From the NCBI GenBank assembly GCA_003598025.1, contig QZKH01000006.1, positions 247,930 to 311,929 of the forward strand: a DNA stretch of 64,000 bases. The letters run 5' to 3'. The notes beneath the pieces were generated by a model. That model saw nothing but the letters and a program-made list of their open reading frames with translations. It did not search any database and was not told where the DNA came from. The translations under genes were made by a program, and so were the position numbers. Position 1 is the stretch's first letter. Each line of letters opens with the position of its first letter. This document shows positions 11,031-59,781 of the stretch, piece by piece. This stretch comes from Candidatus Omnitrophota bacterium (GTDB lineage Bacteria > Omnitrophota > Gorgyraeia > Gygaellales > Profunditerraquicolaceae).

Positions 11031-12214
11031 TGAAGAATATTTTATTTTTATCAGCCAGCATGCCTTTCCCCCCTATAGGCGGAGAAAAAATAAGGCCATT
11101 CCATTTTATTAAACATTTATCTGCTATGGGATATAAGATAACCATAGCTGCCTTTACAGGCAGCAAGAGCGTAAGTGATTCAGGCAGCCAGTTTGCTAAT
11201 GTGAAGATGATAGGGATTAAGCTTCCTAAATATATTTCATATTTGCAATGTGCAGGCGGTCTTTTAAGAGATTTGCCGCTTGAAAATAGTTATTTTTATT
11301 CAGGAAGAATGAAGCGGGCTATTGAGCAGGAGCTTAAAATCGGTAATTACGATTTAATCTTTTGCCATTTAGTAAGGATGGCGGAATATGTAAAAAACTA
11401 TAGAGGTATCCTTAAGGTGCTTGATATGTCAGACGCCCTCTCTTACAGATATGGTTTATCCTGCCGTTACAGAAAATGGCCGTTTAATATGATTGAATCT
11501 CTCGAGTCTAAAAGGCTCAAAAAGTTTGAACCGATTTTTGCTTCAAGTTTCGATCTTAACTTAATATCTTCTTCGGTTGATAAAGAATATCTTGAGAAAG
11601 AATTAGGGATTAGCAGGCTTAGTTTGGTAGAAAACGGCATAGATGAAGAGGCCCTAGTCAAAGGGCAAGGTAAATTTGATAACAATAAAATAGTATTTTT
11701 TGCGAATATGCGTACATTTCATAATGTTGATGCAGCCATATATTTCTATAAAGCGATATTCCCATTGATAAAAAAACATAATAAAGATGCCCGGTTTGTT
11801 ATTGCGGGAGCAAATATGCCGTTTGTTTTAAGAAAATTATCAGGAGTTGATAATTCAGTGCAGGTATATAATAATGTAGAAGATATTTATGCTCTCATTA
11901 AAGATTCTTGCGTATCAGTTGCGCCGATGAGAGTCGCTGTCGGTATACAGAATAAGATAATACAATCTATGGCAGCAGGGGTCCCTGTGGTTGCTACCAG
12001 GCTCGGCCTGGGAGGGATACAGGCAAATGAGGGCAGAGAAATATTGCTTGCGGATAATCCTGAAGATTTCTCGGAAAAGGTAATTACGCTTATGCAGGAT
12101 CATAAATTAAGGTCAGAAATAGCCGCATCAGCATTATCTTTGATCAGAGATAAATACCTCTGGACAGGGATAGTAAGAGGACTGGAACAGAAATTACTAA
12201 CTTTAAATAATTAA
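11030..12214 (+). CDS. GT4-like glycosyltransferase (no Glu in EX7E positions: R-x7-K)
   Basis: GT-B architecture; 'RVAVGIQNKIIQSMAAGVPVVATRLGLGGI' aligns with the GT4 donor-binding block. Confidence 0.6.
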   Translation: MKNILFLSASMPFPPIGGEKIRPFHFIKHLSAMGYKITIAAFTGSKSVSDSGSQFANVKMIGIKLPKYISYLQCAGGLLRDLPLENSYFYSGRMKRAIEQELKIGNYDLIFCHLVRMAEYVKNYRGILKVLDMSDALSYRYGLSCRYRKWPFNMIESLESKRLKKFEPIFASSFDLNLISSSVDKEYLEKELGISRLSLVENGIDEEALVKGQGKFDNNKIVFFANMRTFHNVDAAIYFYKAIFPLIKKHNKDARFVIAGANMPFVLRKLSGVDNSVQVYNNVEDIYALIKDSCVSVAPMRVAVGIQNKIIQSMAAGVPVVATRLGLGGIQANEGREILLADNPEDFSEKVITLMQDHKLRSEIAASALSLIRDKYLWTGIVRGLEQKLLTLNN

Positions 12215-14563: not shown

Positions 14564-14579
14564 ACAATTATTAGTTCTT

Positions 14580-14666
14580 GGTTCATAGTTGATAGTTCAT
14601 AGAAATTGCCAGTATTCATGAACAATGAATCATGAACTATGAACCATGTCTGCCGACAGGCAGGTA
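14580..14666. repeat. Composite intergenic repeat element, copy 1
   Basis: Heptads GTTCATA GTTGATA GTTCATA G at 14581-14602. An 11-bp perfect inverted repeat pairs GGTTCATAGTT (14580-90) with AACTATGAACC (14635-45). The hairpin CTGCC-GACA-GGCAG lies at 14651-14664. The element sits between divergent promoters. Confidence 0.7.
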
Positions 14667-14679
14667 ATAGAGAATTTGA

Positions 14680-14708
14680 TTGACCGCATTGGTTTTCAGT
14701 ATTAAAAT
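14680..14708 (+). promoter_or_regulatory. Candidate sigma70 promoter TTGACC-N17-TAAAAT for the 14725-19414 operon
   Basis: -35 at 14680-85, -10 at 14703-08, ATG at 14725. Confidence 0.4.
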
Positions 14709-19414: not shown

Positions 19415-19450
19415 CAAGCTGTAGAATTAAGAGTTAAGGCTGTTTAACCA

Positions 19451-19484
19451 GGGCCAGAATGACCTTCATATCTGGTCCTTTTTT
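19451..19484 (+). terminator. Rho-independent terminator after htpX
   Basis: GGGCCAGA(19451-58) and TCTGGTCC(19471-78) form an 8-bp stem with one G-U pair and a 12-nt loop. It is followed by TTTTTT at 19479-19484. Confidence 0.6.
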
Positions 19485-19580
19485 CTATGAACCATGAACT
19501 ATGAACCCTGCCTACCGCCTATCTACCGACAGGTAGAGCAGACAGGCATGCACTATGAACCAAATAGGCAGGCAGCCCCA
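19485..19580. repeat. Composite intergenic repeat element, copy 2 (reverse orientation)
   Basis: CTATGAA CCATGAA CTATGAA CC at 19485-19507 is the reverse complement of GTTCATA GTTCATG GTTCATA G. It continues CCTGCCTACCG, has the hairpin CTACC-GACA-GGTAG, another CTATGAAC at 19553-60 and then AGGCAGGCAG. It ends 7 nt before the lysS -35 element. Confidence 0.7.
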
Positions 19581-19586: not shown

Positions 19587-19615
19587 TTGACAACTTTTAA
19601 TTTATAATCTATAAT
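19587..19615 (+). promoter_or_regulatory. Consensus sigma70 promoter TTGACA-N17-TATAAT, 9 nt upstream of the lysS ATG (leaderless or near-leaderless transcript)
   Basis: -35 TTGACA at 19587-92, a 17-nt spacer, -10 TATAAT at 19610-15. The lysS ATG is at 19625 and no SD sequence lies between them. Confidence 0.5.
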
Positions 19616-19624
19616 TATAACTCT

Positions 19625-21067
19625 ATGGAAATAAACGAGATTATAGAACAAAGGAAAGATAAGCTTAAAGCCTTAAAAGAAAAAGGCGTGGACCCTTTTA
19701 GGGGTTCTGCTCCTGTTTCCCGGACAGAAATAGCGGCAGTTGTAAACGGTTTCCAGGAAGGGCTTAAAGTGAGTGTGTGCGGCAGAATATTCGCCAAAAG
19801 GCTGCATGGTAAAGTTATATTCTTTGACTTAAGGGATTCAAGCGCGAGGATCCAGCTTTATGCTAAAAAGGATATAATCGGAGATGAAAAATTTGCCTTA
19901 TTGGAGAACCTGGATATCGCAGATATAATAAACGCCGAGGGCCAGCTTTTTAAAACGCATACCTCGGAGGTTACAATTAAACTTGAAAATTTCGTAGTCT
20001 TGTCAAAGGCGCTTCGCCCGCTACCCGAGAAATGGCACGGGTTAAAAGATGTCGAGTTAAGATACCGACAGCGGTACCTTGATATAATTTCAAACGATGA
20101 AGTCAGAGAGGTATTTCTTAAGCGCTCAAAAATTGTCACCTCCATAAGGAAATTCCTGGATGATAAAGGCTTTATTGAGGTTGAGACCCCTATGATGCAA
20201 AATATCGCAGGAGGGGCCGCGGGCAGGCCGTTTAAGACTTTTCATAACGAATATAGCACTGATTTATACCTCAGGATAGCTCCGGAATTATATCTTAAAA
20301 GGCTTCTTGTTGCCGGTATTGATAAAGTGTATGAGATGAACCGTAATTTCCGTAATGAGGGTGTTTCCATAAAACACAATCCGGAATTTACTATGCTTGA
20401 GGTATATTCTGCTTATGCAGACTATAAGGCAATGATGGATTTGACGGAAGAGCTGATTACAAATGCCGCGGAATCAGTTATAGGCAAAACGAAATTTGAT
20501 TATCAGGGAAAAGAAATAGATTTAGCAAGGCCATGGAAGAGATGTTCTTTTGCAGAGATGGTCAAAAGAAAATTTGATATTAACCCCGAAGATGCGTCTG
20601 AGTTAATGTTAAAGAAATTGCACGATAGTGGTTTTGCCAGGGAGGCAACAAAACTTAGCCGTTCCCAGATAGCTAAGATAATAGAAGATGTGCTTGAGCA
20701 GGAGATGGGCGCAAATCCCACTTTTGTAACGGATTATTTTACATATTTATGCCCGCTGGCAAAAACCAGGCAGGATAATCCTCTTTTATCGGAAAGGTTT
20801 GAGCTGTTTATTTCCGGCATGGAAGTCGGTAATGCCTATTCGGAGTTGAACGACCCCATAGAGCAAAGGCAGCGTTTTGAGGAAGAATTAAAGACAATGG
20901 ATAACACCAAGCAAGTTGACCAGGATTTCGTTTTGGCCCTTGAACATGGTATGCCTCCTGCCGGAGGCTTAGGTATAGGCATAGACAGGTTAGTTATGCT
21001 ATTGACTAACCAGCCGTCTATAAGAGACGTCATCCTGTTTCCCTTATTAAGGCCAGAACATTCTTAA
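19625..21067 (+). CDS. lysS: Lysyl-tRNA synthetase, class II
   Basis: The N-terminus 'RKDKLKALKEKGVDPF', the 'RYRQRYLDIISN' block and the class II motifs ('FRNEG', 'GGLGIGIDRLVMLLT') are all present. Confidence 0.9.
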   Translation: MEINEIIEQRKDKLKALKEKGVDPFRGSAPVSRTEIAAVVNGFQEGLKVSVCGRIFAKRLHGKVIFFDLRDSSARIQLYAKKDIIGDEKFALLENLDIADIINAEGQLFKTHTSEVTIKLENFVVLSKALRPLPEKWHGLKDVELRYRQRYLDIISNDEVREVFLKRSKIVTSIRKFLDDKGFIEVETPMMQNIAGGAAGRPFKTFHNEYSTDLYLRIAPELYLKRLLVAGIDKVYEMNRNFRNEGVSIKHNPEFTMLEVYSAYADYKAMMDLTEELITNAAESVIGKTKFDYQGKEIDLARPWKRCSFAEMVKRKFDINPEDASELMLKKLHDSGFAREATKLSRSQIAKIIEDVLEQEMGANPTFVTDYFTYLCPLAKTRQDNPLLSERFELFISGMEVGNAYSELNDPIEQRQRFEEELKTMDNTKQVDQDFVLALEHGMPPAGGLGIGIDRLVMLLTNQPSIRDVILFPLLRPEHS

Positions 21068-21071
21068 TTTC

Positions 21072-22259
21072 ATGAAAGCGGAAATTTTTATCGGCCTCCG
21101 GTATTTATTGACTAAGCGTAAAGAGAAATTTATCTCTTTAATCAGCGTCCTTTCTATGTCGGGGATCGCAATAGGCGTCATGGCTTTGATAGTTGTTATC
21201 GGGGTTATGAACGGTTTTGACAGAGAATTAAGGGATAAAATCGTGGGAAATTTTTCCCATATCACAGTCTTCGGCTATGACGGTATAGAATCAATTTCTG
21301 CCAGCGCCCTGATTAAAGAAATAAGGTCTAACCCCGGGGTCAGGGATGTTTCAGAATATGTGCAGGGCCAGGTGTTGCTTAAAGAGGGTAATGCTATCTT
21401 TGCAGCGGACTTAAAAGGCATAGACCCAGAGCAGGAAATCAAAGTAACAAAAATAAAAGAATATTTAACCAGCGGCGATATCAATAACTTAAGAGGCGAT
21501 GCCGTGATCATCGGCAGAGAGATGGCCCTTTATCTTGGTGTCGGAGTCGGTTCCTATATAGACACGTATTCTTCTCAGGGTAAATTACGCAAGCTTAAGG
21601 TTTGCGGGATATTCAGCTCAGGCATGTATGATTATGATTTAAGGCTGGTATTCGTCAATATAACGACTGCACAGGAAATTTTTGGTATGCCGGATAGGAT
21701 TAGCGCCCTTGCTGTTAAACTGGATAATCTCTATCTTGCAGACAAAATAAAAGCAGAACTTGGTTCAAAGATAGGGCAGGATTACTATCTTAAAACCTGG
21801 ATGCAGTTAAATGAAAATTTCTTTGCCGCCCTTAAGCTGGAAAAGATTACGATGTTTTTAATATTGACGTTGATTATATTTGTGGCTGCTTTTAATATTG
21901 CAAGTACGTTAATAGTGATGGTGGTGGAAAAGACCAAGGATATAGGCGTATTAAGGGCTTTGGGTATGAGCGCCAAGGGAATACGCAATATTTTTACTTT
22001 CGTAGGCCTGTTTATCGGGACTATGGGCACTTTGATCGGAGGCCTTTCGGGGGTAGCTTTGTGCTTTATACTTAAGAAATACCAGTTTATTAGATTGCCA
22101 TCAGTTTATTCCATTGATAAATTGCCGGTATCAATTGTTTTCTGGCCGGACATAGTGGTAATTATCATTTCGGCATTATTTATTACGTTAATGTCAACGA
22201 TATATCCGGCAAGCAAGGCTGCAGGTTTTAAGCCGGTAGAAGCACTGCGTTACGAATAA
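21072..22259 (+). CDS. lolE: Lipoprotein-release ABC permease LolC/E (FtsX-like)
   Basis: Four TM helices with a large periplasmic loop and MacB/FtsX-like C-terminal TMs. It sits adjacent to lolD. Confidence 0.75.
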   Translation: MKAEIFIGLRYLLTKRKEKFISLISVLSMSGIAIGVMALIVVIGVMNGFDRELRDKIVGNFSHITVFGYDGIESISASALIKEIRSNPGVRDVSEYVQGQVLLKEGNAIFAADLKGIDPEQEIKVTKIKEYLTSGDINNLRGDAVIIGREMALYLGVGVGSYIDTYSSQGKLRKLKVCGIFSSGMYDYDLRLVFVNITTAQEIFGMPDRISALAVKLDNLYLADKIKAELGSKIGQDYYLKTWMQLNENFFAALKLEKITMFLILTLIIFVAAFNIASTLIVMVVEKTKDIGVLRALGMSAKGIRNIFTFVGLFIGTMGTLIGGLSGVALCFILKKYQFIRLPSVYSIDKLPVSIVFWPDIVVIIISALFITLMSTIYPASKAAGFKPVEALRYE

Positions 22260-22264
22260 CAACC

Positions 22265-22942
22265 ATGATAGAGGCCAAAGGAATTTATAAAAATTATATC
22301 ATAGACAGTAATAGGCTTGAGATACTTAAGGGCATAGATTTAAATGTTAAAAAAGGGGAGTTTATAACGATTGTCGGTCCTTCGGGAGCCGGCAAATCTA
22401 CTCTCCTGCATATCCTCGGAGGCTTAGATTCACCAAGCGAGGGTAAGGTGTCAATAGGCGGCCAGGATATTTACAGGATGGATGACCAGAAGATATCAAG
22501 GGTGAGGAATCAGAAAATAGGATTTGTTTTTCAGTTTTACCACTTGCTTTCCGAATTTACTGTTTTAGAAAATGCAGTATTACCTGTTTTTTTTAACGGT
22601 TCTTATACTAAGCCGCAGGCAGCAGAGATAAGAAATAAGGCGATCGGGCTTTTTGCTAATGTCGGCCTTTCAAACAGATTGAACCATTTCCCTATGCAGC
22701 TTTCCGGAGGTGAGAAGCAGAGGGTAGCCATTGTAAGGGCGTTGATGAATGACCCGCAGGTTTTATTATGCGACGAACCTACCGGTAATCTGGATTCAGC
22801 TTCCGGTAACCAGATAATGTCATTAATTAAAGACGTAAATTTAAAATCCAAGATGACAGTTATCCTGGTTACTCATAATCAGGAGCTGGCAAGTTTGGGT
22901 AACAGGATTTTTAATCTTAAAGACGGTGTTTTATTGAATTAA
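22265..22942 (+). CDS. lolD: Lipoprotein-release ABC ATPase
   Basis: Walker A 'GPSGAGKST', signature 'LSGGEKQRVAIVRAL' and Walker B 'LLCDEPTGNLD'. Confidence 0.85.
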   Translation: MIEAKGIYKNYIIDSNRLEILKGIDLNVKKGEFITIVGPSGAGKSTLLHILGGLDSPSEGKVSIGGQDIYRMDDQKISRVRNQKIGFVFQFYHLLSEFTVLENAVLPVFFNGSYTKPQAAEIRNKAIGLFANVGLSNRLNHFPMQLSGGEKQRVAIVRALMNDPQVLLCDEPTGNLDSASGNQIMSLIKDVNLKSKMTVILVTHNQELASLGNRIFNLKDGVLLN

Positions 22943-22960
22943 GGCGCAAAAGGAGAGTAT

Positions 22961-23830
22961 ATGCAAATTTATATTAATGGTAAGTTTTATAGCAGGAAAG
23001 AAGCCAAGATTTCAGTGTTTGACCACGGCCTTTTATATGGTGATGGGGTTTTTGAAGGCATCAGGTCTTACAGGCGACGGGTTTTTAAGCTGAAAGAGCA
23101 TATCGACAGGCTATATGAATCCGCGCATAGCATAATGCTGCCGATGCGGATGTCAAGAGATGAATTGTCCAGAGCCGTGGTAGCAACGCTTAAGAAGAAC
23201 GACCTTGATAATGCATATATCAGGCTCATTGTTACCAGGGGTGAGGGGGATTTGGGTTTGGACCCGCGTAAATGCTACGGTAACTCCACGATTATTATTA
23301 TCGCCGATAAAATTGCTCTTTATCCCGAGAAATTTTACAAACAGGGCCTTTCTATAATTTCCGTTCCGACTGTGCGTAATCTCCCTGAGGCATTGAATCC
23401 GCAGATCAAATCTTTGAATTATCTCAACAATATATTGGCAAAGATCGAAGCTGCAAACAGCGGTTATGATGAGGCGATAATGCTTGATTCATTAGGATAT
23501 GTAGCCGAATGCACAGGAGATAATTTATTTATCGTGAAGAAGAACGAGCTCTATACGCCTCCGCAGTGCATGGGTACCTTAAGAGGTATTACCAGGGATG
23601 CCATTATTGATATCGCCAAAAGTGCCAGGATCCCTGTCCATGAACATGTTATCACCCGGCATGAAGTCTTTATTTCGGATGAATGTTTCTTGACCGGCAC
23701 TGCTGCTGAAGTAATCCCGGTTGTTAAGGTTGATGGCAGGGTTATCGGCTCAGGTGCTCCGGGCGCAGTTACCTTAAGGTTGATGAAAAAGTTCAGAGAA
23801 TTAACTAAAACTGACGGAGTAAAATACTGA
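22961..23830 (+). CDS. ilvE: Branched-chain amino acid aminotransferase (PLP fold type IV)
   Basis: 'GDGVFEGIRSY' and 'GDNLFIVKKNELYTPP...LRGITRD...LTGTAAEVIPVVKVDGRVIG' align with E. coli IlvE motifs. The 289-aa length fits. Confidence 0.75.
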   Translation: MQIYINGKFYSRKEAKISVFDHGLLYGDGVFEGIRSYRRRVFKLKEHIDRLYESAHSIMLPMRMSRDELSRAVVATLKKNDLDNAYIRLIVTRGEGDLGLDPRKCYGNSTIIIIADKIALYPEKFYKQGLSIISVPTVRNLPEALNPQIKSLNYLNNILAKIEAANSGYDEAIMLDSLGYVAECTGDNLFIVKKNELYTPPQCMGTLRGITRDAIIDIAKSARIPVHEHVITRHEVFISDECFLTGTAAEVIPVVKVDGRVIGSGAPGAVTLRLMKKFRELTKTDGVKY

Positions 23831-23842
23831 GAGGATTATATT

Positions 23843-24373
23843 ATGTTGTGTGATATCTGTGGTAAGAATACCGCTACGGTGCACCTCACGGAAATAATTG
23901 ATGAAAAGATGAATGAGCTGCATCTTTGCGAGGACTGTGCAAGGCAAAAGAGCGCGCAGATGGAACAGCAGTTCGGGCTTAGCGAACTATTGGCGGGTTT
24001 GGCGGAATTTGAAAAGCCAGCACAGGATAAAGAAGCAGTTTCAGCCAAGTGTTCGAATTGCGGCCTGAGTTATTCAGATTTTAAGAAGATCGGCAGGCTC
24101 GGCTGCGGTGAGTGTTATACCTCTTTCAAGAAATACCTGGCCCCGTTGCTTAAAAGGATACACGGTTCCAGTTCTCATTTCGGGAAGTCGCCATTTCCCG
24201 CTCCAAAACAGTCGTTAGCAGAAAAGGACCAGGTTGCCGAGTTGCGCTTGAAGTTGCAAAAAGCAATAGAGTCAGAGGCTTTTGAGGACGCAGCCAGAAT
24301 ACGGGACCAAATAAAAGAGCTGGAAAAAACACAAGGAAGATCAGAGGCTAAAAATGGCAATAAGAATAAATGA
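23843..24373 (+). CDS. mcsA: McsA-like activator of protein arginine kinase (zinc-finger pairs plus UVR domain)
   Basis: Cys pairs 'CDICGK...CEDCARQ' and 'CSNCG...CGECY', followed by a UVR-like C-terminus 'AELRLKLQKAIESEAFEDAARIRDQIKELE'. It lies immediately upstream of mcsB. Confidence 0.75.
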   Translation: MLCDICGKNTATVHLTEIIDEKMNELHLCEDCARQKSAQMEQQFGLSELLAGLAEFEKPAQDKEAVSAKCSNCGLSYSDFKKIGRLGCGECYTSFKKYLAPLLKRIHGSSSHFGKSPFPAPKQSLAEKDQVAELRLKLQKAIESEAFEDAARIRDQIKELEKTQGRSEAKNGNKNK

Positions 24374-25415
24374 CCTGTTAAATCATACAAGCGAATGGCT
24401 AAAAGGTACCGGGCCAAGTTCTGAAATTGTAATTTCCAGCAGGGTACGCCTTGCAAGGAATCTTGATCAGGCGCCTTTCCCGCACCATGCAAATAAGAAA
24501 CAGGCTGAAGATAACCTTGCTGTTATAGAGAACGCAATAATGAAAAATAATATGTTAAAAGGTGTTACTATCTTCAAGCTTTCGGAATTAGACAGCGTTG
24601 ACAAGGATTTTCTTGTTGAAAGGCACCTTATGTCTCATGAGCATGCCCAGAAAACCAATTCCAAGGCTTTGGTCATTGACCCGGAAGAGATAGTTTCTAT
24701 CATGATAAATGAAGAAGACCATATAAGGTTTCAGGTCATGCAGTCAGGGTTTAATTTGTTCGAAGCTTGGAACATAATAAATAAGATTGATGATGAATTG
24801 TCTAAAGACCTGAAATTTGCCTTTTCCCGGGAGTGGGGGTACCTTACTGCTTGTCCTACTAATACCGGCACCGGTATGCGCGGCTCAGTTATGCTGCATT
24901 TGCCCGCCCTGGTTATCACCAGGCAGATAAGCAGGATACTTGCCGCGATATCTAAATTAAGTTTTACAACCCGCGGATTATATGGAGAGGGTACTGAAGC
25001 TACTGGTAATTTCTTCCAAATTTCCAATCAGGTATCCTTAGGTCATAGCGAAATGGAAGTACTTGAGAATATAAATAGCCTTATTAAGCAGGTAATTGAG
25101 CAGGAAACACAGGCCAGGCAAGTGTTACTTTCTCAGGGAAGGTCCATGCTTGAAGACAGGATCAGCCGCAGTTTCGGCATACTTAAAAGCGCCCATATTA
25201 TTTCCAGCAAGGAAACAACCGAACTTTTATCGATGGTTAGGCTGGGATGCGATCTGGGCATAATCAAAAATATCGACCGCCGGTCAATAAACGAATTATT
25301 TATTATTACCCAGCCGGCGCATTTACAGAAGCTGGAGAATAAAAAGCTTTCTTCTCAGGAAAGAGATACCAAAAGGGCAGAGATAGTAAGGAATAAGTTA
25401 AAAGACAGCTCGTAA
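24354..25415 (+). CDS. mcsB: Protein arginine kinase (ATP:guanido phosphotransferase family)
   Basis: '[22 protein letters not shown]' is the guanidino-kinase active-site Cys block, and the 353-aa length fits. Confidence 0.85.
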
Positions 25416-25438
25416 AGATATACATAATAGGAGGAGTA

Positions 25439-27850
25439 ATGTTTAACAGGTTCACAGAAAGAGCAAGAAAAGTAATCATTTTAGCTAAAGAAGAAGCCAG
25501 GCGTTTTAATCATGATTATATAGGCACTGAGCATATACTTCTTGGTTTGATCCGCGAAGGCGAAGGTGTAGCTGCAGCTGTTCTACAGAAGCTGGGGTTG
25601 TCTTTGGAGAACATACGCCTTGAGATAGAAAAACTCGTACAACCCGGGCCTACTACCCAGATAATCGGGGACATCCCTTTTACTCCCAGGTCGAAGAAGG
25701 CGCTTGAGCTTGCTGCAGAAGAGGCGCGTTCTTTAGGGCATAATTATATAGGCACTGAGCATATACTTCTTGGTTTGATCCGCGAAGGCGAAGGTGTAGC
25801 TTCGCAGGTACTTTTAAATCTGGGAGTGGATCTTAATACCGTGCGCAATGAGATCATGGAAGTCTTGGGGTCGGCCCTTCCCGGCTTTGGCCAGCAGCAG
25901 TCTAAAAGCAAAACGCCTGCACTGGATGCTTTCGGCAGGGACCTTACACAATTGGCTAAAGCAAACAAATTAGACCCGGTTATCGACAGGCACCAGGAGA
26001 TAGAAAGAGTTATACAGGTTTTGAGCAGGCGTACCAAGAATAATCCTGTTTTACTCGGTGAAGCAGGGGTAGGTAAGACTGCTATAGTCGAAGGCTTGGC
26101 ACAGTCTATTGTTTCTGGGAATGTCCCGGAGATATTGAGGAATAAGAGGATTGTGGTTTTAGATTTGGCAATGATGATCGCTGGAACAAAATACCGCGGC
26201 CAGTTTGAGGAAAGGATAAAAGCGGTAATGGAAGAGATCAAGCGTTCACAGGATGTAATCATTTTTATTGATGAGTTGCATACTTTAGTCGGAGCCGGTG
26301 CTGCCGAAGGAGCAATTGATGCTTCCAATATTCTCAAGCCCGCACTTTCACGCGGCGAGATACAGTGTATCGGAGCCACAACCATGGATGAATACAGGAA
26401 GTATATTGAGAAAGATGCTGCGCTTGAGAGGCGTTTCCAAACTATAATGGTAGAGCCGCCCTCTGTCCTGCAGACCGTAGAGATACTTAAGGGCTTAAGA
26501 GATAAATATGAGGCTCACCATCGGGTTACTTTTAAGGATGAGGCTTTAGAAGCTGCTGCAAAATTATCAGACCGGTATATCACGGGCAGGTTTTTGCCTG
26601 ATAAGGCGATTGATTTGATTGATGAGGCCGGTTCGCGCTCAAGGTTAAATGTTTTAGTCGTCCCTCCGGAAATAAAAGAGTTAGAAAAAAAGGTCGAGGT
26701 CTTAAAGAAGGAAAAAGAAGCTTATATCAAGAGCCAGGATTTTGAGAAAGCAGCTTCATTGCGTGACCAGGAGAGGCAGGCAAGGCTGGAACTGGAAGAG
26801 TTGAATCAGAAATGGGGGCAGACAAAAGACAGGACCAGGCCTGAGGTCGCGGAGGAAGATATCGCAAGGATTGTTTCTCAGTGGACAGGCATACCGATAT
26901 TCCGCCTTGAAGAAAAAGAAAGCGAAAAGCTTCTTAAGATTGAAGAAGTCTTACATAACAGGGTTATCGGTCAGAATGAGGCGATCTCTGCTATAGCAAA
27001 TGCGATAAGGCGTTCAAGGGCAGGTATAAAAGACCCAAAGAGGCCTATAGGTTCTTTTATATTCTTAGGCCCTACCGGTGTCGGCAAGACTTTGCTTGCC
27101 AGGGCACTGGCAGAGTTTATGTTCGGCGATGAGGATGCACTCCTGCAGCTGGATATGTCTGAGTATATGGAGAAATTTAATGTTTCCCGTTTAGTAGGCG
27201 CACCTCCGGGTTATGTAGGTTATGAAGAAGGAGGGCAACTGACTGAAAGGGTCAGAAGAAGGCCTTATGCAGTTATTCTCTTTGATGAGATCGAGAAGGC
27301 GCATCCGGATGTTTTTAATCTTTTGCTGCAGGTTTTTGAAGAAGGCAGGCTTACTGATAGCTTTGGCAGAAAAGTGGATTTCAGAAACACGGTCATTATT
27401 ATGACCTCAAATGTCGGAGCGGAGCTGATTAAAAAGAGCGTTTCTTTGGGTTTTAAAGCGCAAAAAGAAGAGGTTACTTACGAGGAGATGAAAGATAAGC
27501 TTCTTGAAGAGGTTAAAAAAACCTTTAAGCCTGAGTTCATCAACCGCGTAGATGATATTATAGTGTTTAGGTCGTTATTAAGGGCAGATCTTGAGAAGAT
27601 CGTTGATCTTGAAGTAGGCCATGTTGCTGATAGGTTAAAAGATAAAAATATAAAGCTTGATATCCGTCCGGATGCCAAAGATTTTATAATCGAGAAAGGT
27701 TTTGATCCGGTATTCGGGGCAAGGCCGTTAAAGAGGATAATACAGAGGTTCCTTGAGGATCCCTTAGCTTCTGAAATAATCTCAGGCAGGTTCAAGGACG
27801 GAGCCACTGTCCGAGTTTCCCGTAAAAATGAGGAGCTAGTTTTAGAATGA
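25439..27850 (+). CDS. clpC: ATP-dependent Clp protease ATP-binding subunit ClpC (class III AAA+)
   Basis: Two Clp_N repeats, AAA1 with 'GEAGVGKTA', a UVR-like linker and AAA2 with 'GPTGVGKT'. Total length 803 aa. Confidence 0.9.
25515..25573 (+). repeat. 59-bp perfect direct repeat, copy 1 (Clp_N repeat 1 coding sequence)
   Basis: Identical 59-mer at 25515-25573 and 25743-25801. With flanks the match is 62/63 bp over 25511-25573 versus 25739-25801. Confidence 0.9.
25743..25801 (+). repeat. 59-bp perfect direct repeat, copy 2 (Clp_N repeat 2 coding sequence)
   Basis: Encodes '[19 protein letters not shown]', as does copy 1. Confidence 0.9.
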
Positions 27851-28632
27851 TTAAACGCCTGTTCGTAATCTTCGGCAGAAGAATCCTTTATTTTATGTAT
27901 TTTCTGGGAGGTTTAAGCAATCTGGCTATGCAGACTATTTATCGCATCTTTACTCCTCCCTACAAGAAGCACAGGATTTTTGAGCAGGCTAAAAAAGCCG
28001 GTTACGACAGCCTGCCGATAGTCTCTTTGATATCCCTGTTTATCGGGTTTATCTTTGCGTTACAGACAGCATATTTTATGCAGCGCATAGGCTCTGAACT
28101 TTATATTGCAAGCATGGTTGCTCTATCTTTAGTCAGGGAATTGAGCCCGGTCATTACGGCTTTGGTAGTAGCAGGCAGGGTCGGCGCATCTATCACTGCC
28201 GAGTTAGGCTCTATGCAGGTTACTGAGCAGATCGATGCTTTGGAGTCATTTGCATCGAATCCGATAAAATACCTGGTTGTGCCGCGTTTTCTAGCTTTGA
28301 CTTTTATGCTTCCGTTGCTTACTCTTTATTCTAACGCCATAGGCATATTCGGGAGCTTTCTGATATGCACAGCAAAACTGGGGATATCCTCCAGTATTTA
28401 TATGCATGTTACTTTTGACGCCTTGCAATATAAAGATCTTTTTACCGGCTTATTTAAGTCCGTTGTCTTCGGTATGATAATAGCGTTAGTCAGTTGTTAT
28501 GAAGGCTTTAATGTCGAGGGCGGCGCCGAAGGAGTAGGGCGGGCAACTACCCGCTCGGTAGTTATAACTTTTATTTTGATTATTATTGCGGATTGCTTCT
28601 TTACCGCTTTATTTTATTTTATTTTTCCTTAG
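27847..28632 (+). CDS. mlaE: Mla/Ttg2-type ABC permease
   Basis: MlaE-family permease with five TMs ('[39 protein letters not shown]'). Confidence 0.8.
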
Positions 28633-28643
28633 AGAGGTAAGAG

Positions 28644-29396
28644 ATGATCGATATTATGAATGTATGCAAATCATTTGGCGAGCATAAGGTTTTAGATGAA
28701 CTCAGCCTTAAGGTTGAGACCGGCACTACATGTGTGATCATAGGCCGTTCAGGCTGCGGAAAGTCAGTATTATTGAAACATATCGTGGGTTTATTAAGGC
28801 CGGATAAAGGGAGCATCTTCGTAGACAAGAAAGAAGTAAATAAATTAAAGGACGCAGAAATAAATCAGCTGCGCATGAAAATAGCTATGGTTTTTCAGGG
28901 CGGAGCGTTATTTGATTCAATGACCGTGGGCGAGAATGTAGGCTTCGGCCTTATAGAGCATCAAAGTATAGGTCATAAGGAATTGCTGGAACGCATTGAG
29001 GAATCACTTTGCCTGGTTGGTCTTTGCGGCATCGGGAATCTTATGCCTTCAGAACTAAGCGGAGGCATGAAAAAGCGCGTGGCGCTTGCCAGGGCGATTT
29101 GTCTTAAGCCGGAAATCATACTTTATGATGAACCGACTACAGGGGTTGACCCGATTACCGCCGATAGTATTAATGACCTTATCAGGAGCCTGCATGATAA
29201 ATTGAAGGTCACATCTATCGTGGTTACTCATGATATGAAGAGTGCCTATAAAGTAGCAGACAGGATAGCTATGATGTATCGCGGCAAGATAATAGCAGAA
29301 GGGACTTCTGAAGAAATACAGAATGCAAAACACCCGGTTGTCCATCAGTTTGTCAACGGCCTGGCATATGGGCCGATTACGGAGACTTTAGGCTAA
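28644..29396 (+). CDS. mlaF: Mla-type ABC ATPase
   Basis: Walker A 'GRSGCGKSV', 'LSGGMKKRVALARA' and Walker B 'ILYDEPTTGVDP'. Confidence 0.85.
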   Translation: MIDIMNVCKSFGEHKVLDELSLKVETGTTCVIIGRSGCGKSVLLKHIVGLLRPDKGSIFVDKKEVNKLKDAEINQLRMKIAMVFQGGALFDSMTVGENVGFGLIEHQSIGHKELLERIEESLCLVGLCGIGNLMPSELSGGMKKRVALARAICLKPEIILYDEPTTGVDPITADSINDLIRSLHDKLKVTSIVVTHDMKSAYKVADRIAMMYRGKIIAEGTSEEIQNAKHPVVHQFVNGLAYGPITETLG

Positions 29397-29434
29397 ATTT
29401 ATCTGGACATTATTTAAAATAACGGAGGTTATCT

Positions 29435-30058
29435 ATGATATTCGGAAAAACAAAATTAGAAATGAAAGTCGGTATTTTCGTTTTTCTGGGAATAGTTATT
29501 TTATCTGTGTTTGTCCTGTCCCTTGGTGGCTTCAGGACATGGACTTCTGGTTATGAGGTAAGTTTTATATTTAATTTTGTAAACGGTATCAAGGTAGGGG
29601 CACCGGTCAGGTTTGCCGGAGTTGATGTCGGCGAGGTAAAAAATATTACTTTCGTGGCGCCAAATAACCCAACAGATCCGATAAAGACAAATATCCGTTG
29701 CTGGGTTAATAAAAATATTAAAATTCCGATGGATTCTACGATCTGGGTTAATACTCTCGGTTTACTGGGTGAGAAATACCTGGAGATAATGCCGGGTAAA
29801 GATTATGCCAATACCTTAGCCAAAGGTGCATCTCTTGACGGAGAGGATCCCTTACCTATGCATGAGGTCGTAAAATTAGCAAATAATATAGCTACTAATC
29901 TTGATGAAAGCATAGCCAAGATTAATCACGGTCAAGGCACCGTAGGTAAGCTTCTGTATGATGATGCGATATATAAAGAGATAGAGGCTCTATCTATGGA
30001 TTTAAGACGCAACCCCTGGAAATTATTCTGGAAGACAAAGGAAAAGCCTTTGAAATGA
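29435..30058 (+). CDS. mlaD: MCE-domain substrate-binding protein
   Basis: An N-terminal TM then the MCE core 'GIKVGAPVRFAGVDVGEV'. Confidence 0.7.
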   Translation: MIFGKTKLEMKVGIFVFLGIVILSVFVLSLGGFRTWTSGYEVSFIFNFVNGIKVGAPVRFAGVDVGEVKNITFVAPNNPTDPIKTNIRCWVNKNIKIPMDSTIWVNTLGLLGEKYLEIMPGKDYANTLAKGASLDGEDPLPMHEVVKLANNIATNLDESIAKINHGQGTVGKLLYDDAIYKEIEALSMDLRRNPWKLFWKTKEKPLK

Positions 30059-31425: not shown

Positions 31426-31444
31426 TTATTAACGTTTTTATGCA

Positions 31445-31525
31445 TTTGCGGCTGATTAATAAATATTATTTTTTAGTAAGCATAGCCGCAAACATCAGCG
31501 GTATTATTAAAGTATTGCCGCTGAT
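31445..31525 (+). other. Two tandem stem-loops in the radA-yacL intergenic region
   Basis: Hairpin 1 pairs TTTGCGGCT (31445-53) with AGCCGCAAA (31484-92): 9 bp, AT-rich 30-nt loop. Hairpin 2 pairs ATCAGCGG (31494-501) with CCGCTGAT (31518-25). Neither has a U-tract. The RBS AAGGAGG at 31530 follows. Confidence 0.35.
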
Positions 31526-31542
31526 ATTATAAGGAGGTTTTT

Positions 31543-34410: not shown

Positions 34411-34427
34411 TAGTTCATGGTTCATAG
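34411..34427. repeat. Short copy of the heptad repeat in the cysE-cysS spacer
   Basis: TAGTTCATGGTTCATAG, 15 nt upstream of the cysS ATG. Confidence 0.5.
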
Positions 34428-46576: not shown

Positions 46577-46631
46577 TTCACTGTTTACAGATCACAGTTC
46601 GCGGAGATAGTTAAATATTGCTGTGAACTAG

Positions 46632-49551: not shown

Positions 49552-49588
49552 AACGATATGATACCAATGAAATAATGCTTTGTCAAAA

Positions 49589-49710
49589 GGTTATAGATAG
49601 TTCATAGATAATGGTTCATAGTTCATGGTTCATAGATCATAGATAATCTCTATTTCTTCGAATGCGACTATCAACCATGGACAATGAACCCTGCCTACCG
49701 GCAGGCAGGC
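49589..49710. repeat. Composite intergenic repeat element, copy 3
   Basis: Heptads GGTTATA GATAGTTCATAGATAATG GTTCATA GTTCATG GTTCATA GATCATA GATAATC at 49589-49648. Then ...CATGGACAATGAACC CCTGCC-TACC-GGCAGG at 49690-49705. The 17-mer ATGAACCCTGCCTACCG is shared exactly with copy 2. The element ends 14 nt before the pyrE -35 element. Confidence 0.7.
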
Positions 49711-49723
49711 GTGAACTAACTCA

Positions 49724-49752
49724 TTGACACTCCCAAAACAGGATAGTACAAT
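49724..49752 (+). promoter_or_regulatory. Near-consensus sigma70 promoter TTGACA-N17-TACAAT, 8 nt upstream of the pyrE ATG (leaderless)
   Basis: -35 at 49724-29, -10 at 49747-52. The ATG at 49761 has no SD sequence ahead of it. Confidence 0.45.
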
Positions 49753-49760
49753 ATTAATTT

Positions 49761-50327
49761 ATGGAAACCCAGTTAAGGGATATAAACTATTATCGAGGGC
49801 GGTTGCATTCTCTTTTAAAAAGAGAGGCGCTCAAGAAAGGGAAGTTTGTGCTATCTTCAGGAAAAGAAAGCACTTATTATTTAGATGGGCGCATAGTCAC
49901 CCTTTCTTCAGAAGGGGCTTATTTAGTAGCTAAGATTATCATCGAAATGATCAAAGGATTGAATATATCTGCTGTAGGAGGGCCCACCCTGGGAGCTGAC
50001 CCGATCGTAGGGGCCCTGGCCGCAATCAGCTACCTGGAGAAAAGCCCGGTGAATACTTTTATTGTTCGTAAATCTGCAAAGGGCCACGGCATGCAGAGGC
50101 TAATCGAAGGCCCTAAGTTGAATCCGGGGGCTAAAGTTGTTCTTGTTGACGATGTTGCTACTACAGGCAAAGCTATAATTGAAGCTAAGGCAGCTTTGGA
50201 CCAAGCCGGCCTGAAAGCGGATACTGCAATTGTCGTTGTCGATAGATGCGAGGGTGCGGATAAGAACCTTTCTGAACACGGAATAGTTTTAAAGCCAATT
50301 TTCAAAATATCTGATTTTGATATTTAA
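49761..50327 (+). CDS. pyrE: Orotate phosphoribosyltransferase
   Basis: 'KVVLVDDVATTGKAI' PRPP-binding motif, 188 aa. Confidence 0.8.
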   Translation: METQLRDINYYRGRLHSLLKREALKKGKFVLSSGKESTYYLDGRIVTLSSEGAYLVAKIIIEMIKGLNISAVGGPTLGADPIVGALAAISYLEKSPVNTFIVRKSAKGHGMQRLIEGPKLNPGAKVVLVDDVATTGKAIIEAKAALDQAGLKADTAIVVVDRCEGADKNLSEHGIVLKPIFKISDFDI

Positions 50328-59779: not shown

Positions 59780-59781
59780 AT

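What the first reader, a model, noticed from the sequence alone, without database searches (positions are those of the whole stretch)
14580..14666. Family of composite intergenic repeat elements (GTTCATR heptad arrays plus CTGCC hairpin), each abutting a promoter
The same composite element recurs four times, and only in intergenic DNA.
- Copies are at 14580-14666, 19485-19580, 34411-34427 and 49589-49710.
- Each has direct tandem heptads G[TA]TCAT[AG], an inverted heptad arm (an 11-bp perfect inverted repeat at locus 1) and a small GC hairpin CTGCC-N4-GGCAG.
- Locus 2 is in reverse orientation relative to loci 1 and 3.
- Loci 2 and 4 share an exact 17-mer, ATGAACCCTGCCTACCG.

Every copy ends 7-15 nt upstream of a -35 element or start codon:
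- the divergent GGDEF and membrane-operon promoters;
- lysS;
- cysS;
- pyrE.

Heptad direct repeats recall CtsR-type operators (heptad direct repeats), and this genome carries mcsAB-clpC without an adjacent ctsR. The overall architecture also resembles REP/BIME or MITE-like elements with terminal inverted repeats.

Either way, this is an organism-specific regulatory or mobile repeat family that a gene-centred annotation does not explain.
Basis: seen in the sequence. Interest (0 to 1): 0.7.

Follow-up and report, generated by a model that had tools for sequence, protein, structure and literature searches.

The report
Heptamer-repeat hairpins with a tiny palindrome
The four intergenic repeats are real: tandem 7-base repeats that fold back on themselves and carry a small 16-20-base GC-rich palindrome, a poorly understood type of repetitive DNA found in many bacterial phyla and most likely selfish or neutral filler rather than a gene switch.

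Summary
GTTCATRG occurs 16 times in the window against 2.9 expected, and 13 of those lie in 630 nt of four spacers. The window comes from a Candidatus Omnitrophota MAG.

**Anatomy**
- Loci 1 and 4 have a forward heptad arm, a loop, an inverted heptad arm and a GC palindrome. They fill the gap between divergent -35 boxes.
- Locus 2 sits between the htpX terminator and the lysS -35 box.
- Locus 3 is only two heptads.

**Interpretation**
- The CtsR-operator reading fails on period, sequence, position and target genes.
- Orthologous spacers in four related Omnitrophota lack the element.
- Two other relatives have the same conserved operon swollen by inverted period-7 arrays built from different heptamers.
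- (GTTCATR)x3 arrays occur in more than 120 loci from species-representative genomes of about ten phyla, and are almost always intergenic.

**The palindrome**
- CCTGCCTRCCGGCAGGCAGG is a separate 20-nt insertion module.
- It recurs exactly in contigs of 33-70% GC, often inside heptamer arrays and once in a tRNA-Met variable arm.

**Verdict:** a new member of the known heptanucleotide-repeat (STRR/LSSR) and mosaic-palindrome kind. Its function is probably nil or structural. The cross-phylum mini-palindrome is the unexplained part.

The parts
14572..14602 (+). Locus 1, forward heptad arm (TAGTTCT TGGTTCA TAGTTGA TAGTTCA TAG; unit GTTCATR)
   Evidence: TRF period 7, 4.4 copies. Pairs with 14616-14648 (I1-I4).
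14616..14648 (+). Locus 1, inverted heptad arm (YATGAAC units)
   Evidence: TRF period 7/14. Inverted-repeat arms are 78-88% complementary. The DNA fold of 14566-14676 has z = -5.2.
14649..14664 (+). Locus 1, GC hairpin TCTGCC-GACA-GGCAGG, followed by TAAT; ends 15 nt before the + strand -35 box
   Evidence: it folds as a separate hairpin. A homologue, GTCTGCC-N10-GGCAGGTAAT, lies next to a heptad hairpin in another Omnitrophota contig at L428 11075.
19450..19484 (+). htpX intrinsic-terminator-like hairpin (19450-19479) plus T-run (19479-19484), immediately upstream of the locus 2 element
   Evidence: DNA fold -8.2 kcal/mol, z = -3.5; T-run read. The consensus terminator scan did not list it.
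19485..19506 (+). Locus 2, three heptads in the inverted orientation (CTATGAAC CATGAAC TATGAAC)
19507..19576 (+). Locus 2, the 20-nt palindrome split by a nested insert of about 50 nt. Left half CCTGCCTACCG is at 19507-19517; right half GGCAGGCAG is at 19567-19575. The insert carries hairpin TCTACC-GACA-GGTAGA (19522-19537) and one heptad CTATGAAC (19553-19560).
   Evidence: I3 (arms 19508-19516 and 19567-19575). The nested hairpin differs from the locus 1 hairpin by a compensatory G-C to A-T change, read from the sequences.
34413..34427 (+). Locus 3, minimal copy: two heptads GTTCATG GTTCATA G in the 43-nt cysE-cysS spacer, 14 nt before the cysS ATG
   Evidence: Chance expectation for this 15-mer pattern is 0.0007 per window.
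49597..49642 (+). Locus 4, forward heptad arm, 6.6 copies
   Evidence: TRF period 7 and 14. The lag-7 identity scan peaks at 0.77 here.
49667..49689 (+). Locus 4, inverted heptad arm (ACTATCAACCATGGACAATGAAC)
   Evidence: I1 (23 nt, 87% complementary) and I2. The fold of 49590-49722 has z = -5.6.
49690..49709 (+). Locus 4, 20-nt palindrome CCTGCCTACC|GGCAGGCAGG, inserted at a heptad boundary; ends 14 nt before the pyrE -35 box
   Evidence: I7. Deleting it leaves the in-phase heptads CAATGAA CCGTGAA CTAACTC (register print). The identical 20-mer occurs in other organisms.
49710..49721 (+). Locus 4, trailing heptad CGTGAAC plus TAACT; outer arm pairing with AGATAGTTCA at 49595-49604
   Evidence: I6 (10 nt, 90%). 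The same ...GAACTAACT tail follows the palindrome in Omnitrophota contig L220.
14535..14563 (-). Promoter-like site for the GGDEF gene (TTGACT-17-TATACT); left boundary of locus 1
14680..14708 (+). Promoter-like site (TTGACC-17-TAAAAT) for the 164-aa/TPR operon; right boundary of locus 1
19587..19615 (+). lysS-operon promoter TTGACA-17-TATAAT (12/12), 9 nt before the ATG at 19625; right boundary of locus 2
   Evidence: A promoter at a similar position is kept in relative L122, which lacks the element; L123 also has one, but further from its ATG.
49558..49586 (-). comF promoter-like site (TTGACA-17-TG-TATCAT); left boundary of locus 4
49724..49752 (+). pyrE promoter-like site (TTGACA-17-TACAAT), 8 nt before the ATG at 49761; right boundary of locus 4

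Best explanation
The loci are DNA-level mosaic repeats of the heptanucleotide-repeat kind (cyanobacterial STRR / 'long simple sequence repeats').

**What each element is**
- An array of tandem 7-nt units (here GTTCATR) that has been palindromised into a forward arm and an inverted arm.
- One or more copies of a separate 16-20-nt GC-rich palindrome module (CCTGCCTRCC|GGCAGGCAGG, or TCTRCC-GACA-GGYAGR) inserted at a heptad boundary or at the end of an array.
- The modules nest inside one another, as at locus 2.

**Shown**
- The anatomy.
- Confinement to spacers outside the predicted transcription units.
- Absence from orthologous spacers of relatives.
- Presence of the same architecture with different heptamers in other Omnitrophota.
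- The discrete, insertion-like behaviour of the 20-mer.

**Inferred**
- The arrays grow and shrink by slipped-strand mispairing.
- The inverted arms arise by fold-back or template-switch copying.
- The small palindrome is dispersed by an unidentified trans-acting process that favours hairpin-prone DNA.
- In this very compact, nearly leaderless genome, copies survive only in the few stretches under no constraint: between divergent -35 boxes, or between a terminator and the next -35 box.
- Any effect on expression is most likely incidental: promoter spacing or insulation, and cruciform extrusion in the negatively supercoiled DNA between divergent promoters. It is not sequence-specific regulation.
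For: **(1) Non-random and spacer-restricted.** 13 of 16 GTTCATRG matches lie in 630 nt.

**(2) Hairpin architecture.**
- Arms of 22-27 nt are 78-88% complementary.
- DNA folds have z = -5.2 and -5.6.

**(3) Position.** The elements exactly fill the space between predicted -35 boxes, or between the htpX terminator and the lysS -35 box. The three large copies are therefore probably untranscribed.

**(4) Not conserved at orthologous sites.**
- Five relatives with the same lysS-macB-ABC-aminotransferase-mcsA-mcsB-clpC-mla operon, plus L122 whose contig ends at mcsB, were examined. L121, L122, L123 and L426 have no heptads, although L122 keeps a similarly placed TTGACA/TATAAT promoter and L123 has one further from its ATG.
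- L427 and L428 have operon junctions expanded to 72-247 nt by period-7 arrays arranged as inverted arms.
- Each of those elements uses its own heptamer: AAAGTCA, GTCTATA, TTCTAAT, GTTCGTA/TAGCTCT, CACGAAT, AAAACTC, GTGTAAT.

**(5) The same grammar recurs in relatives.**
- L427 20677-20846 has heptad arms around an inner palindrome that also occurs alone at 11447-11528.
- L428 11075 has GTCTGCC..GGCAGGTAAT beside a heptad hairpin.
- L426 13392 has the perfect 20-mer.
- L220, another Omnitrophota contig, has ATGAAC heptads on both sides of the exact 20-mer.

**(6) Breadth.**
- (GTTCATR)x3 hit the 120-locus limit in species-representative genomes from about ten phyla.
- 127 of 132 arrays lie outside ORFs of 150 aa or more, and 23 have an inverted partner within 250 nt.
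- Scrambled heptamers and TAACTGA also form arrays, so the phenomenon is general rather than sequence-specific.

**(7) The 20-mer is a module.**
- In one viral contig, 3 of 13 copies of an unrelated repeat (CCTCACCCCCRRC|CCCTCTCC...) carry it at exactly the same point.
- A same-composition scrambled control gives 0 loci, against 12 and 35 loci for the two natural variants.
- Its flanks are enriched only for lag-7 periodicity: 10% against 0.6% of control positions.

**(8) No candidate regulator or mobilising gene.** None of the 58 window genes screened against Pfam or NCBIfam is a transposase, RAYT or CtsR; four fab-region ORFs (59752-61733) were not screened.

**(9) Literature.**
- Heptanucleotide repeats are the most abundant long SSR class in many prokaryotes, with polymerase slippage proposed (Mrazek 2007, as summarised in PMC4679880).
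- They are over-represented in intergenic DNA, occur as inverted pairs, and vary between close relatives (PMC4692102).
Against: - The generating and dispersing mechanisms are inferred, not shown. No closely related genome (LysS identity above 71%) was available, so no true filled-versus-empty allele pair exists for the window's own loci.
- The same heptamer at four loci within 64 kb needs either dispersal or selection, and slippage alone does not explain it.
- At the two intact copies (loci 1 and 4) the GC palindrome ends 14-15 nt upstream of a + strand -35 box, and at locus 2 the right half of the split palindrome ends 11 nt upstream; all are in the same orientation. A promoter-proximal function would also predict this.
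- Identical 20-mers in contigs of 33-70% GC imply strong sequence constraint. A purely neutral model does not explain that.
- Only 64 kb of this genome could be examined.
Confidence: 0.6

Rival explanations
1. REPIN/BIME-type or MITE-type non-autonomous transposon. The GC palindrome, possibly with flanking ATGAAC...GTTCA, is recognised as a single-stranded hairpin by a RAYT/IS200-like HUH transposase encoded elsewhere in the genome. The heptads are passengers or landing pads.
For: - The palindrome is a discrete 20-nt insertion with filled and empty sites.
- Insertions are nested (locus 2).
- The stem shows a compensatory change.
- Four metagenome elements (L201, L206, L210, L197) share the ends ATGAAC + palindrome ... 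GTGGTTCAAA around a variable, co-varying hairpin.
- Some contigs carry many copies.
Against: - None of the 58 window genes screened against Pfam or NCBIfam is a transposase.
- No protein family is shared near independent palindrome sites.
- There are no target-site duplications, and there is no 5' GTAG flanking the stem as in REPs.
- The window copies differ in length and module order.
- Genome-wide RAYT presence could not be tested.
Confidence: 0.17
2. Structured RNA elements: REP-like mRNA stabilisers or processing sites, back-up terminators or small RNAs, acting after transcription.
For: - Long stable hairpins.
- In relatives L427 and L428 the equivalent elements sit between genes of one operon and would be transcribed.
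- Locus 3 lies in the cysE-cysS intercistronic spacer.
- The palindrome is tolerated in a tRNA-Met variable arm.
Against: - In the window the three large copies lie upstream of the predicted promoters or downstream of a terminator.
- There is no Rfam match at gathering or relaxed thresholds.
- There is no consistent orientation relative to flanking genes, and no conservation at orthologous sites.
Confidence: 0.1
3. Operator or activator-site arrays for a heptad-recognising transcription factor (CtsR-like or SARP-like), or a palindrome-binding dimeric regulator at about -55 to -60, co-regulating lysS...clpC, pyrE, cysS and the GGDEF/TPR genes.
For: - Every copy abuts a promoter or start codon.
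- The intact palindromes end 14-15 nt upstream of -35 boxes, and the split one at locus 2 ends 11 nt upstream.
- GTTCATA matches the CtsR half-site GGTCAAA at 5 of 7 positions.
- The lysS promoter heads the operon that contains mcsA-mcsB-clpC.
Against: - The 7-bp period puts successive units on different helix faces. CtsR and SARP sites have 10-11 bp periods.
- The CtsR consensus is at chance level.
- Palindrome centres differ by about 3.5 bp relative to the predicted TSSs.
- Relatives with the same operon and a lysS promoter lack the element.
- Relatives that do have arrays use unrelated heptamers.
- The 20-mer also occurs inside other repeats and in a tRNA gene.
- No regulator gene is nearby.
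Confidence: 0.07
4. Contingency (phase-variable) simple-sequence repeats whose copy number tunes the adjacent promoters, as with the 7-bp repeats upstream of Haemophilus influenzae hmw1A.
For: - They are tandem heptamers at promoters.
- Heptamer tracts are slippage-prone (literature: PMC4679880, PMC8262952).
Against: - The tracts lie outside the -35/-10 spacer and outside the transcripts.
- The adjacent genes are housekeeping (lysS, cysS, pyrE).
- The units are impure (76-88% matches), which damps slippage.
- No population data were available.
Confidence: 0.05

Closest known systems
Short tandemly repeated repetitive (STRR) sequences / heptanucleotide long SSRs. Sources: Mazel et al. 1990 for Calothrix/Anabaena, from memory; Mrazek et al. 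2007 as summarised in PMC4679880; GGGAATC and GGGGAYT repeats in PMC4692102; TAACTGA repeats in PMC4679880.
   Same: - Tandem 7-nt units, dispersed at many intergenic loci.
- Several heptamer types per genome.
- Occasional inverted pairs that can form stem-loops.
- Variable between close relatives.
- Patchy cross-phylum distribution (Cyanobacteria, Bacteroidota, some Proteobacteria).
- Function unknown.
   Different: - The unit GTTCATR and the host phylum Omnitrophota are, to my knowledge, not described.
- The inverted-arm (palindromised) form is the rule here rather than the exception.
- The arrays carry an inserted GC palindrome.
- TAACTGA repeats sit in 5' leaders just before start codons, whereas these lie upstream of -35 boxes.
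REP / BIME / REPIN elements of Enterobacteria and Pseudomonas (PMC3116915)
   Same: - Short extragenic palindromes combined into mosaics.
- Nested or adjacent modules.
- Hairpin-forming.
- Many copies, selfish or weakly functional.
   Different: - REPs are 20-40-nt imperfect palindromes with a flanking GTAG, mobilised by RAYT.
- They lie mostly in transcribed 3' regions.
- Here there is no GTAG-flanked stem, no RAYT in view, heptamer arrays form the arms, and the location is upstream of promoters.
Small dispersed repeats (SDR, 21-27 nt) of Nostoc (Elhai et al. 2008, Genome Res 18:1484). Cited in PMC3116915; the paper itself could not be read, so the details are from memory.
   Same: - Very small (about 20 nt) dispersed elements found inserted into other repeats.
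- Filled and empty sites exist.
- No encoded function.
   Different: - Different sequence.
- A near-perfect palindrome.
- Found across many phyla, in viral contigs, and in GC contexts of 33-70% rather than in one cyanobacterial clade.
CtsR operators (Firmicutes class III heat-shock repressor) and SARP heptameric direct repeats (PMC5930380)
   Same: - Heptad direct repeats near promoters.
- An mcsA-mcsB-clpC operon is present downstream of lysS.
   Different: - Those sites are 2-3 heptads spaced at a 10-11 bp period, overlapping the promoter, with a cognate regulator gene.
- Here there are contiguous 7-bp arrays of up to 6.6 units plus inverted arms, upstream of -35 boxes, at unrelated housekeeping genes.
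Phase-variable heptanucleotide tracts (H. influenzae hmw1A promoter, PMC8262952; neuO, PMC13001214)
   Same: 7-nt tandem repeats close to a promoter or start codon.
   Different: - Those tracts are pure, single-orientation, at surface or virulence genes, and lie within the promoter/leader or the ORF.
- These are impure, palindromised, and at housekeeping genes.

Membership tests
Heptanucleotide tandem repeats (STRR / LSSR) | Head-to-tail repeats with a 7-nt unit | tested here: met
   - TRF finds period 7/14 arrays at loci 1, 2 and 4.
- Lag-7 identity is 0.42-0.55 against a background of 0.26, and the only segments of the window reaching 0.66 are at loci 1 and 4.
Heptanucleotide tandem repeats (STRR / LSSR) | Dispersed at several loci, essentially intergenic | tested here: met
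   - Four loci, with 13 of 16 octamer matches in 1% of the window.
- 127 of 132 arrays in other genomes lie outside long ORFs.
Heptanucleotide tandem repeats (STRR / LSSR) | Presence, length and unit vary between related genomes | tested here: met
   - Absent from orthologous spacers in L121, L122, L123 and L426.
- Different heptamers at other junctions in L427 and L428.
CtsR operator | RGTCAAA-NAN-RGTCAAA direct repeat (10-bp period) | tested here: not met
   With up to 3 mismatches the consensus gives 9 matches against 7.45 expected, none at the four loci. The heptads here are contiguous.
CtsR operator | Overlaps the promoter or TSS of clp/heat-shock genes | tested here: not met
   - The arrays are upstream of -35 boxes.
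- The adjacent genes are lysS, cysS, pyrE and a GGDEF gene.
- There is no spacer before mcsA.
CtsR operator | Cognate ctsR gene in the genome | not testable with these tools
   - None was found among the 58 window genes screened, nor next to mcsA in six relatives.
- The rest of the genome was not retrievable.
REP/BIME/REPIN | Imperfect palindrome of 20-40 nt with a conserved flanking GTAG tetranucleotide | tested here: not met
   A palindrome of 16-20 nt is present, but there is no GTAG 5' of the stem. GGTA/TACC is in the loop or centre (sequences).
REP/BIME/REPIN | Associated RAYT (Y1/HUH) transposase | not testable with these tools
   None is encoded among the 58 window genes screened, and no shared gene lies near independent palindrome sites. 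Whole genomes were not available.
REP/BIME/REPIN | Mosaic combination of palindromic units with other short motifs in extragenic DNA | tested here: met
   Heptad arms plus palindrome modules, nested at locus 2. The same grammar is seen in L427 and L428.
MITE | Copies of uniform length with terminal inverted repeats and target-site duplications | tested here: not met
   - Copies are 15, about 92, about 93 and about 125 nt long, with different module order.
- No direct repeats flank them.
- The metagenome elements L201, L206, L210 and L197 do share their ends, but these differ from the window copies.
Small dispersed repeats (SDR-like mini-insertions) | A discrete element of about 20 nt found inserted in otherwise homologous sequences (filled versus empty sites) | tested here: met
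   - 3 of 13 copies of a repeat in L128/L129 carry the exact 20-mer at one point.
- tRNA-Met in L453 is called both with the 20-mer (92 nt) and without it (72 nt).
- Removing the 20-mer restores in-phase heptads at window locus 4 and in L220.
Phase-variable SSR | Copy-number heterogeneity within populations that alters expression | not testable with these tools
   No read-level or strain-level data. The nearest LysS relative is only 71% identical.
Known RNA family (Rfam) | Match to a curated covariance model | tested here: not met
   No hits at gathering score in the window. Only chance-level hits at relaxed thresholds.

The most novel reading that the evidence does not exclude
The 20-nt palindrome CCTGCCTRCC|GGCAGGCAGG is an ultra-small mobile DNA that no paper in the searchable library mentions.

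- It is kept identical in bacterial and viral contigs of 33-70% GC.
- It inserts without target duplication into hairpin-prone DNA: heptamer arrays of many different sequences, other palindromic repeats, and a tRNA-Met variable arm.
- This implies a widespread, unidentified trans-acting insertion or templating machinery.
- The heptamer arrays would then be its preferred landing pads, or a by-product of the same machinery, rather than plain slippage products.
Probability: 0.3. Interest if true: 0.7.

Novelty: new member of a known kind. Interest (0 to 1): 0.4.

Why it matters
**For annotation.** The largest non-coding gaps in this compact Omnitrophota genome exist because of repeat insertions. 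They are not evidence of hidden regulators or RNAs.

**More broadly**
- Inverted heptamer arrays are a recurrent, insertion-polymorphic component of spacers in an uncultured phylum, and the same heptamer occurs in about ten phyla.
- The origin of heptanucleotide repeats has been open since 1990.
- The tight association found here between such arrays and a strictly conserved 20-nt palindrome gives a concrete handle for finding the enzyme or process that writes or moves them: phylogenetic profiling of the palindrome against gene content.

Tried and rejected
- **Retrieving the source contig.** Exact-protein look-ups found nothing on record. The 17-mer metagenome scan did not return the window's own contig. 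A genome-wide census in this organism was therefore impossible.
- **Rfam.** Nothing at gathering or relaxed thresholds.
- **CtsR box search.** Chance level.
- **'The GC palindrome is itself three heptads in phase'.** Rejected. The GC segments show lag-4 (CCTG/CAGG) periodicity, not lag-7.
- **'GTTCATR is a uniquely favoured heptamer, implying a shared binding protein'.** Rejected. Scrambled heptamers give 10 and 83 viral loci and TAACTGA gives more than 100, against 46 for GTTCATR.
- **General co-occurrence of GTTCATR arrays with the 20-mer.** Only 1 of 166 array loci (L083) carries it. The association is with period-7 DNA in general.
- **A gene shared near independent palindrome sites.** None found.
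- **Annotated phages and plasmids.** Only chance-level partial matches.
- **Literature searches for the exact sequences.** None found.
- **tRNA context of L430 and L460.** No intact tRNA with or without the palindrome. Only L453 stands.
- **Elhai 2008.** The paper could not be read.
Full report
**Observation**

The four loci are present as described.
- GTTCATRG occurs 16 times against 2.88 expected, and no shuffle of 100 reaches 16.
- 13 of the matches lie in four spacers totalling 630 nt, which gives P of about 4e-24 under uniformity. The three coding matches equal chance expectation. The refutation condition 'similar density inside coding regions' is therefore not met.
- TRF reports period-7/14 arrays at 14572-14602, 14616-14648, 19487-19507 and 49597-49642.
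- CTGCC-N4-GGCAG occurs twice against 0.03 expected.
- Loci 2 and 4 share the 17-mer.
- Locus 3 is only GTTCATGGTTCATAG, but that pattern is expected 0.0007 times per window.
- The generalisation 'each copy has heptads, an inverted arm and a hairpin' holds only for loci 1 and 4.

**Organism and context**

LysS is 100% identical to a protein named 'MAG: Candidatus Omnitrophota bacterium' (RJP28143.1). The next relatives are 71% identical or less.

The flanking genes are:
- a GGDEF sensor (-) facing a 164-aa/TPR operon (+) at locus 1;
- htpX then lysS at locus 2;
- cysE then cysS at locus 3;
- comF (-) facing pyrE (+) at locus 4.

All 58 genes screened against Pfam or NCBIfam are housekeeping: glycosyltransferases, the lysS-macB-ABC-aminotransferase-mcsA-mcsB-clpC-mlaEFD operon, ispDF, tRNA synthetases, lptFG, recG and fab genes. 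None is a transposase, RAYT or CtsR. Four ORFs in the fab region (59752-61733) were not screened.

The window is about 97% coding. The three largest true spacers are exactly the three that carry large elements.

**Anatomy**

Loci 1 and 4 have the same plan: forward heptad arm, loop, inverted heptad arm, GC palindrome.
- The arms are 22-27 nt long and 78-88% complementary.
- Single-strand DNA folds have z = -5.2 and -5.6.
- At locus 4 an outer pair (49595-49604 with 49712-49721) encloses everything.
- Deleting the 20-nt palindrome there (49690-49709, arms 90% complementary with no loop) leaves in-phase heptads.

Locus 2 is three heptads followed by the same palindrome split by an insert of about 50 nt (arms 19508-19516 and 19567-19575).
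- The insert carries a second hairpin, TCTACC-GACA-GGTAGA.
- This is the locus 1 hairpin TCTGCC-GACA-GGCAGG with a compensatory G-C to A-T change.
- The elements are therefore mosaics of nested modules.

**Relation to transcription signals**

Consensus scans place -35 boxes at 14563 (-) and 14680 (+), at 19587 (+, a 12/12 promoter), and at 49586 (-) and 49724 (+).
- Start codons lie 6-17 nt after the -10 hexamers, so leaders are short or absent.
- The elements fill the space between divergent -35 boxes.
- At locus 2 the element fills the space between a terminator-like hairpin with a T-run (19450-19484) and the lysS -35 box.
- The three large copies are thus most probably untranscribed. This argues against an RNA function here.

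**Comparative evidence within Omnitrophota**

Five relatives carry the same operon (L121, L123, L426, L427, L428), and a sixth (L122) carries it up to mcsB, where its contig ends.
- Four of them (L121, L122, L123, L426) have no GTTCATR arrays and tight operon junctions. L122 nevertheless keeps a TTGACA/TATAAT promoter in front of lysS at a similar position, and L123 has one further from its ATG.
- Two (L427, L428) have junctions of the same operon expanded to 72-247 nt by period-7 arrays arranged as inverted arms.
- Each of those elements uses a different heptamer.
- L427 has heptad arms around an inner palindrome that also occurs alone elsewhere in the locus.
- L428 has GTCTGCC-N10-GGCAGGTAAT beside a heptad hairpin, a homologue of the locus 1 hairpin with its TAAT tail.
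- L426 has the perfect 20-mer.
- A further Omnitrophota contig (L220; taxon from DnaJ hits) has ATGAAC heptads on both sides of the exact 20-mer, followed by the same GAACTAACT tail as locus 4.

The composite is therefore a general, insertion-polymorphic spacer element of this phylum. It is not a conserved regulatory site and it is not specific to this organism.

**Breadth outside the phylum**

- (GTTCATR)x3 reached the 120-locus limit in species-representative genomes of Cyanobacteriota, Bacteroidota, Desulfobacterota, Methylomirabilota, Planctomycetota, Verrucomicrobiota, Acidobacteriota, Ignavibacteriota, Poribacteria, Bacillota and Pseudomonadota.
- 127 of 132 arrays lie outside ORFs of 150 aa or more, and 23 have an inverted partner within 250 nt.
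- Many sit next to arrays of other heptamers.
- In viral contigs GTTCATRx3 gives 46 loci, two scrambled controls give 10 and 83, and TAACTGAx3 gives more than 100.
- GTTCATR is therefore one heptamer among many.
- This matches the literature. Heptanucleotide repeats are the most abundant long SSR class in many prokaryotes, are intergenic, sometimes occur as inverted pairs, and vary between close relatives. Polymerase slippage has been proposed and no function is established (PMC4679880, PMC4692102).

**The palindrome as a separate module**

- The exact 20-mer CCTGCCTACCGGCAGGCAGG occurs 15 times in 12 viral loci of 33-70% GC.
- The perfect variant CCTGCCTGCCGGCAGGCAGG occurs in 35 loci, with up to 6 copies per contig.
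- A control with the same composition and structure but a scrambled stem occurs in none.
- In one contig, 3 of 13 copies of an unrelated repeat carry the 20-mer at exactly the same point.
- In L453 it forms the variable arm of a tRNA-Met gene that ARAGORN calls both with and without it.
- Its flanks are enriched for lag-7 periodicity only: 10% of sites reach 0.6 or more against 0.6% of control positions.
- About 10 of the 44 metagenome loci holding the 17-mer carry the full ATGAAC + palindrome junction. Four of these share both ends around a variable, co-varying hairpin.
- No gene is shared near independent sites.
- Annotated phages and plasmids lack it.
- No paper in the library contains it.

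**Interpretation**

The best-supported reading (confidence 0.6) is DNA-level mosaic repeats.
- Heptamer arrays expand by slippage and are palindromised by fold-back copying. These steps are inferred.
- Small GC palindromes are inserted into the arrays. The insertion-like behaviour is shown; the mechanism is unknown.
- Copies are tolerated only in the unconstrained DNA outside transcription units of a compact genome.
- Effects on promoters are probably incidental.

The rivals are:
- a RAYT-type mobilised element (0.17);
- transcribed structural RNA (0.10);
- transcription-factor arrays (0.07);
- phase-variable tracts (0.05).

The CtsR idea fails on period, sequence, position, target genes and conservation.

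**What remains unexplained**

- Why one heptamer is used at four loci within 64 kb.
- Why a 20-mer stays identical across very different GC backgrounds.
- Why at the two intact copies the palindrome ends 14-15 nt upstream of the + strand -35 box, and at locus 2 the split palindrome ends 11 nt upstream.

Noticed in passing
window 19587-19627, 49724-49763, 49549-49586: Strong sigma-70-like promoters end 6-9 nt before the ATG of lysS, pyrE and comF, so these mRNAs would be leaderless or nearly so. A similarly placed lysS promoter is present in relative L122.
   Followed up: partly
window 19625-31425; L121, L123, L426-L428 (L122 up to mcsB): A conserved Omnitrophota operon: lysS-macB-ABC-class IV aminotransferase-mcsA-mcsB-clpC-mlaE-mlaF-mlaD-radA-like. 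mcsAB-clpC has no ctsR and no promoter spacer of its own.
   Followed up: partly
L453 2239-2330 (viral contig IMGVR_UViG_3300033148_008720): A tRNA-Met gene carries the 20-nt palindrome CCTGCCTGCCGGCAGGCAGG (2284-2303) as a long variable arm. ARAGORN calls the tRNA both with the 20-mer (92 nt) and without it (72 nt). L430 holds a related tRNA remnant with the same insertion.
   Followed up: yes
L128, L129 (viral contig IMGVR_UViG_2848964341_000001): A dense repeat family, CCTCACCCCCRRC-CCCTCTCC-AAAGG-AGAGGGG-AG..CTACACT, with 13 copies in about 10 kb. Three copies have the 20-mer inserted at the same internal point.
   Followed up: partly
L201, L206, L210, L197 (soil/rhizosphere metagenome contigs, 39-43% GC): Elements of about 115-125 nt with conserved ends (WATGAAC + 20-mer + CAC ... 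GTGGTTCAAA) around a variable hairpin whose arms co-vary (CACATAG/CTATGTG against CACGGAG/CTCCGTG). This looks like a discrete element family. The host taxon was not determined.
   Followed up: partly
L428 3601-3746, 5696-5942, 12094-12252; L427 11447-11528 and 20730-20804: Other small dispersed palindromes in Omnitrophota spacers. GCGGGATCCCGC-type hairpins occur in three L428 spacers. A 25-28-nt palindrome, GGGGACGTTTCTATTTTT.., occurs twice in L427, once alone and once inside heptad arms.
   Followed up: partly
window 54005-54057 and 46577-46631: Possible decayed relatives: a degenerate period-7 tract (CTAAACT GTCAACC GTGCACC GTAAACT) before recG, and a TCACAG...CTGTGA hairpin with GTTCACAG-like units between convergent alr and lptG. 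Neither passes the lag-7 threshold.
   Followed up: no
window 31426-31542: The 117-nt spacer before the gene at 31543 (strong AAGGAGG ribosome-binding site) holds two unrelated inverted repeats: TTGCGGCT..AGCCGCAA and ATCAGCGG..CCGCTGAT. There are no heptads.
   Followed up: no
L193 2492-2560 (metagenome contig Ga0315286_10000001): The 28-nt unit CCATGAAC + 20-mer palindrome is itself tandemly duplicated. The heptad-plus-palindrome junction can therefore propagate as one unit.
   Followed up: no
L122 9839-10000: The htpX-lysS spacer of this relative has its own nested palindromes (TAAATTCTCT..ATG / CAT.AGAGAATTTA around GACGAGGCA..TGCCTCGTC). It shares the 11-mer ATAGAGAATTT with window 14667-14677. 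This may be coincidence (about 0.06 expected).
   Followed up: no
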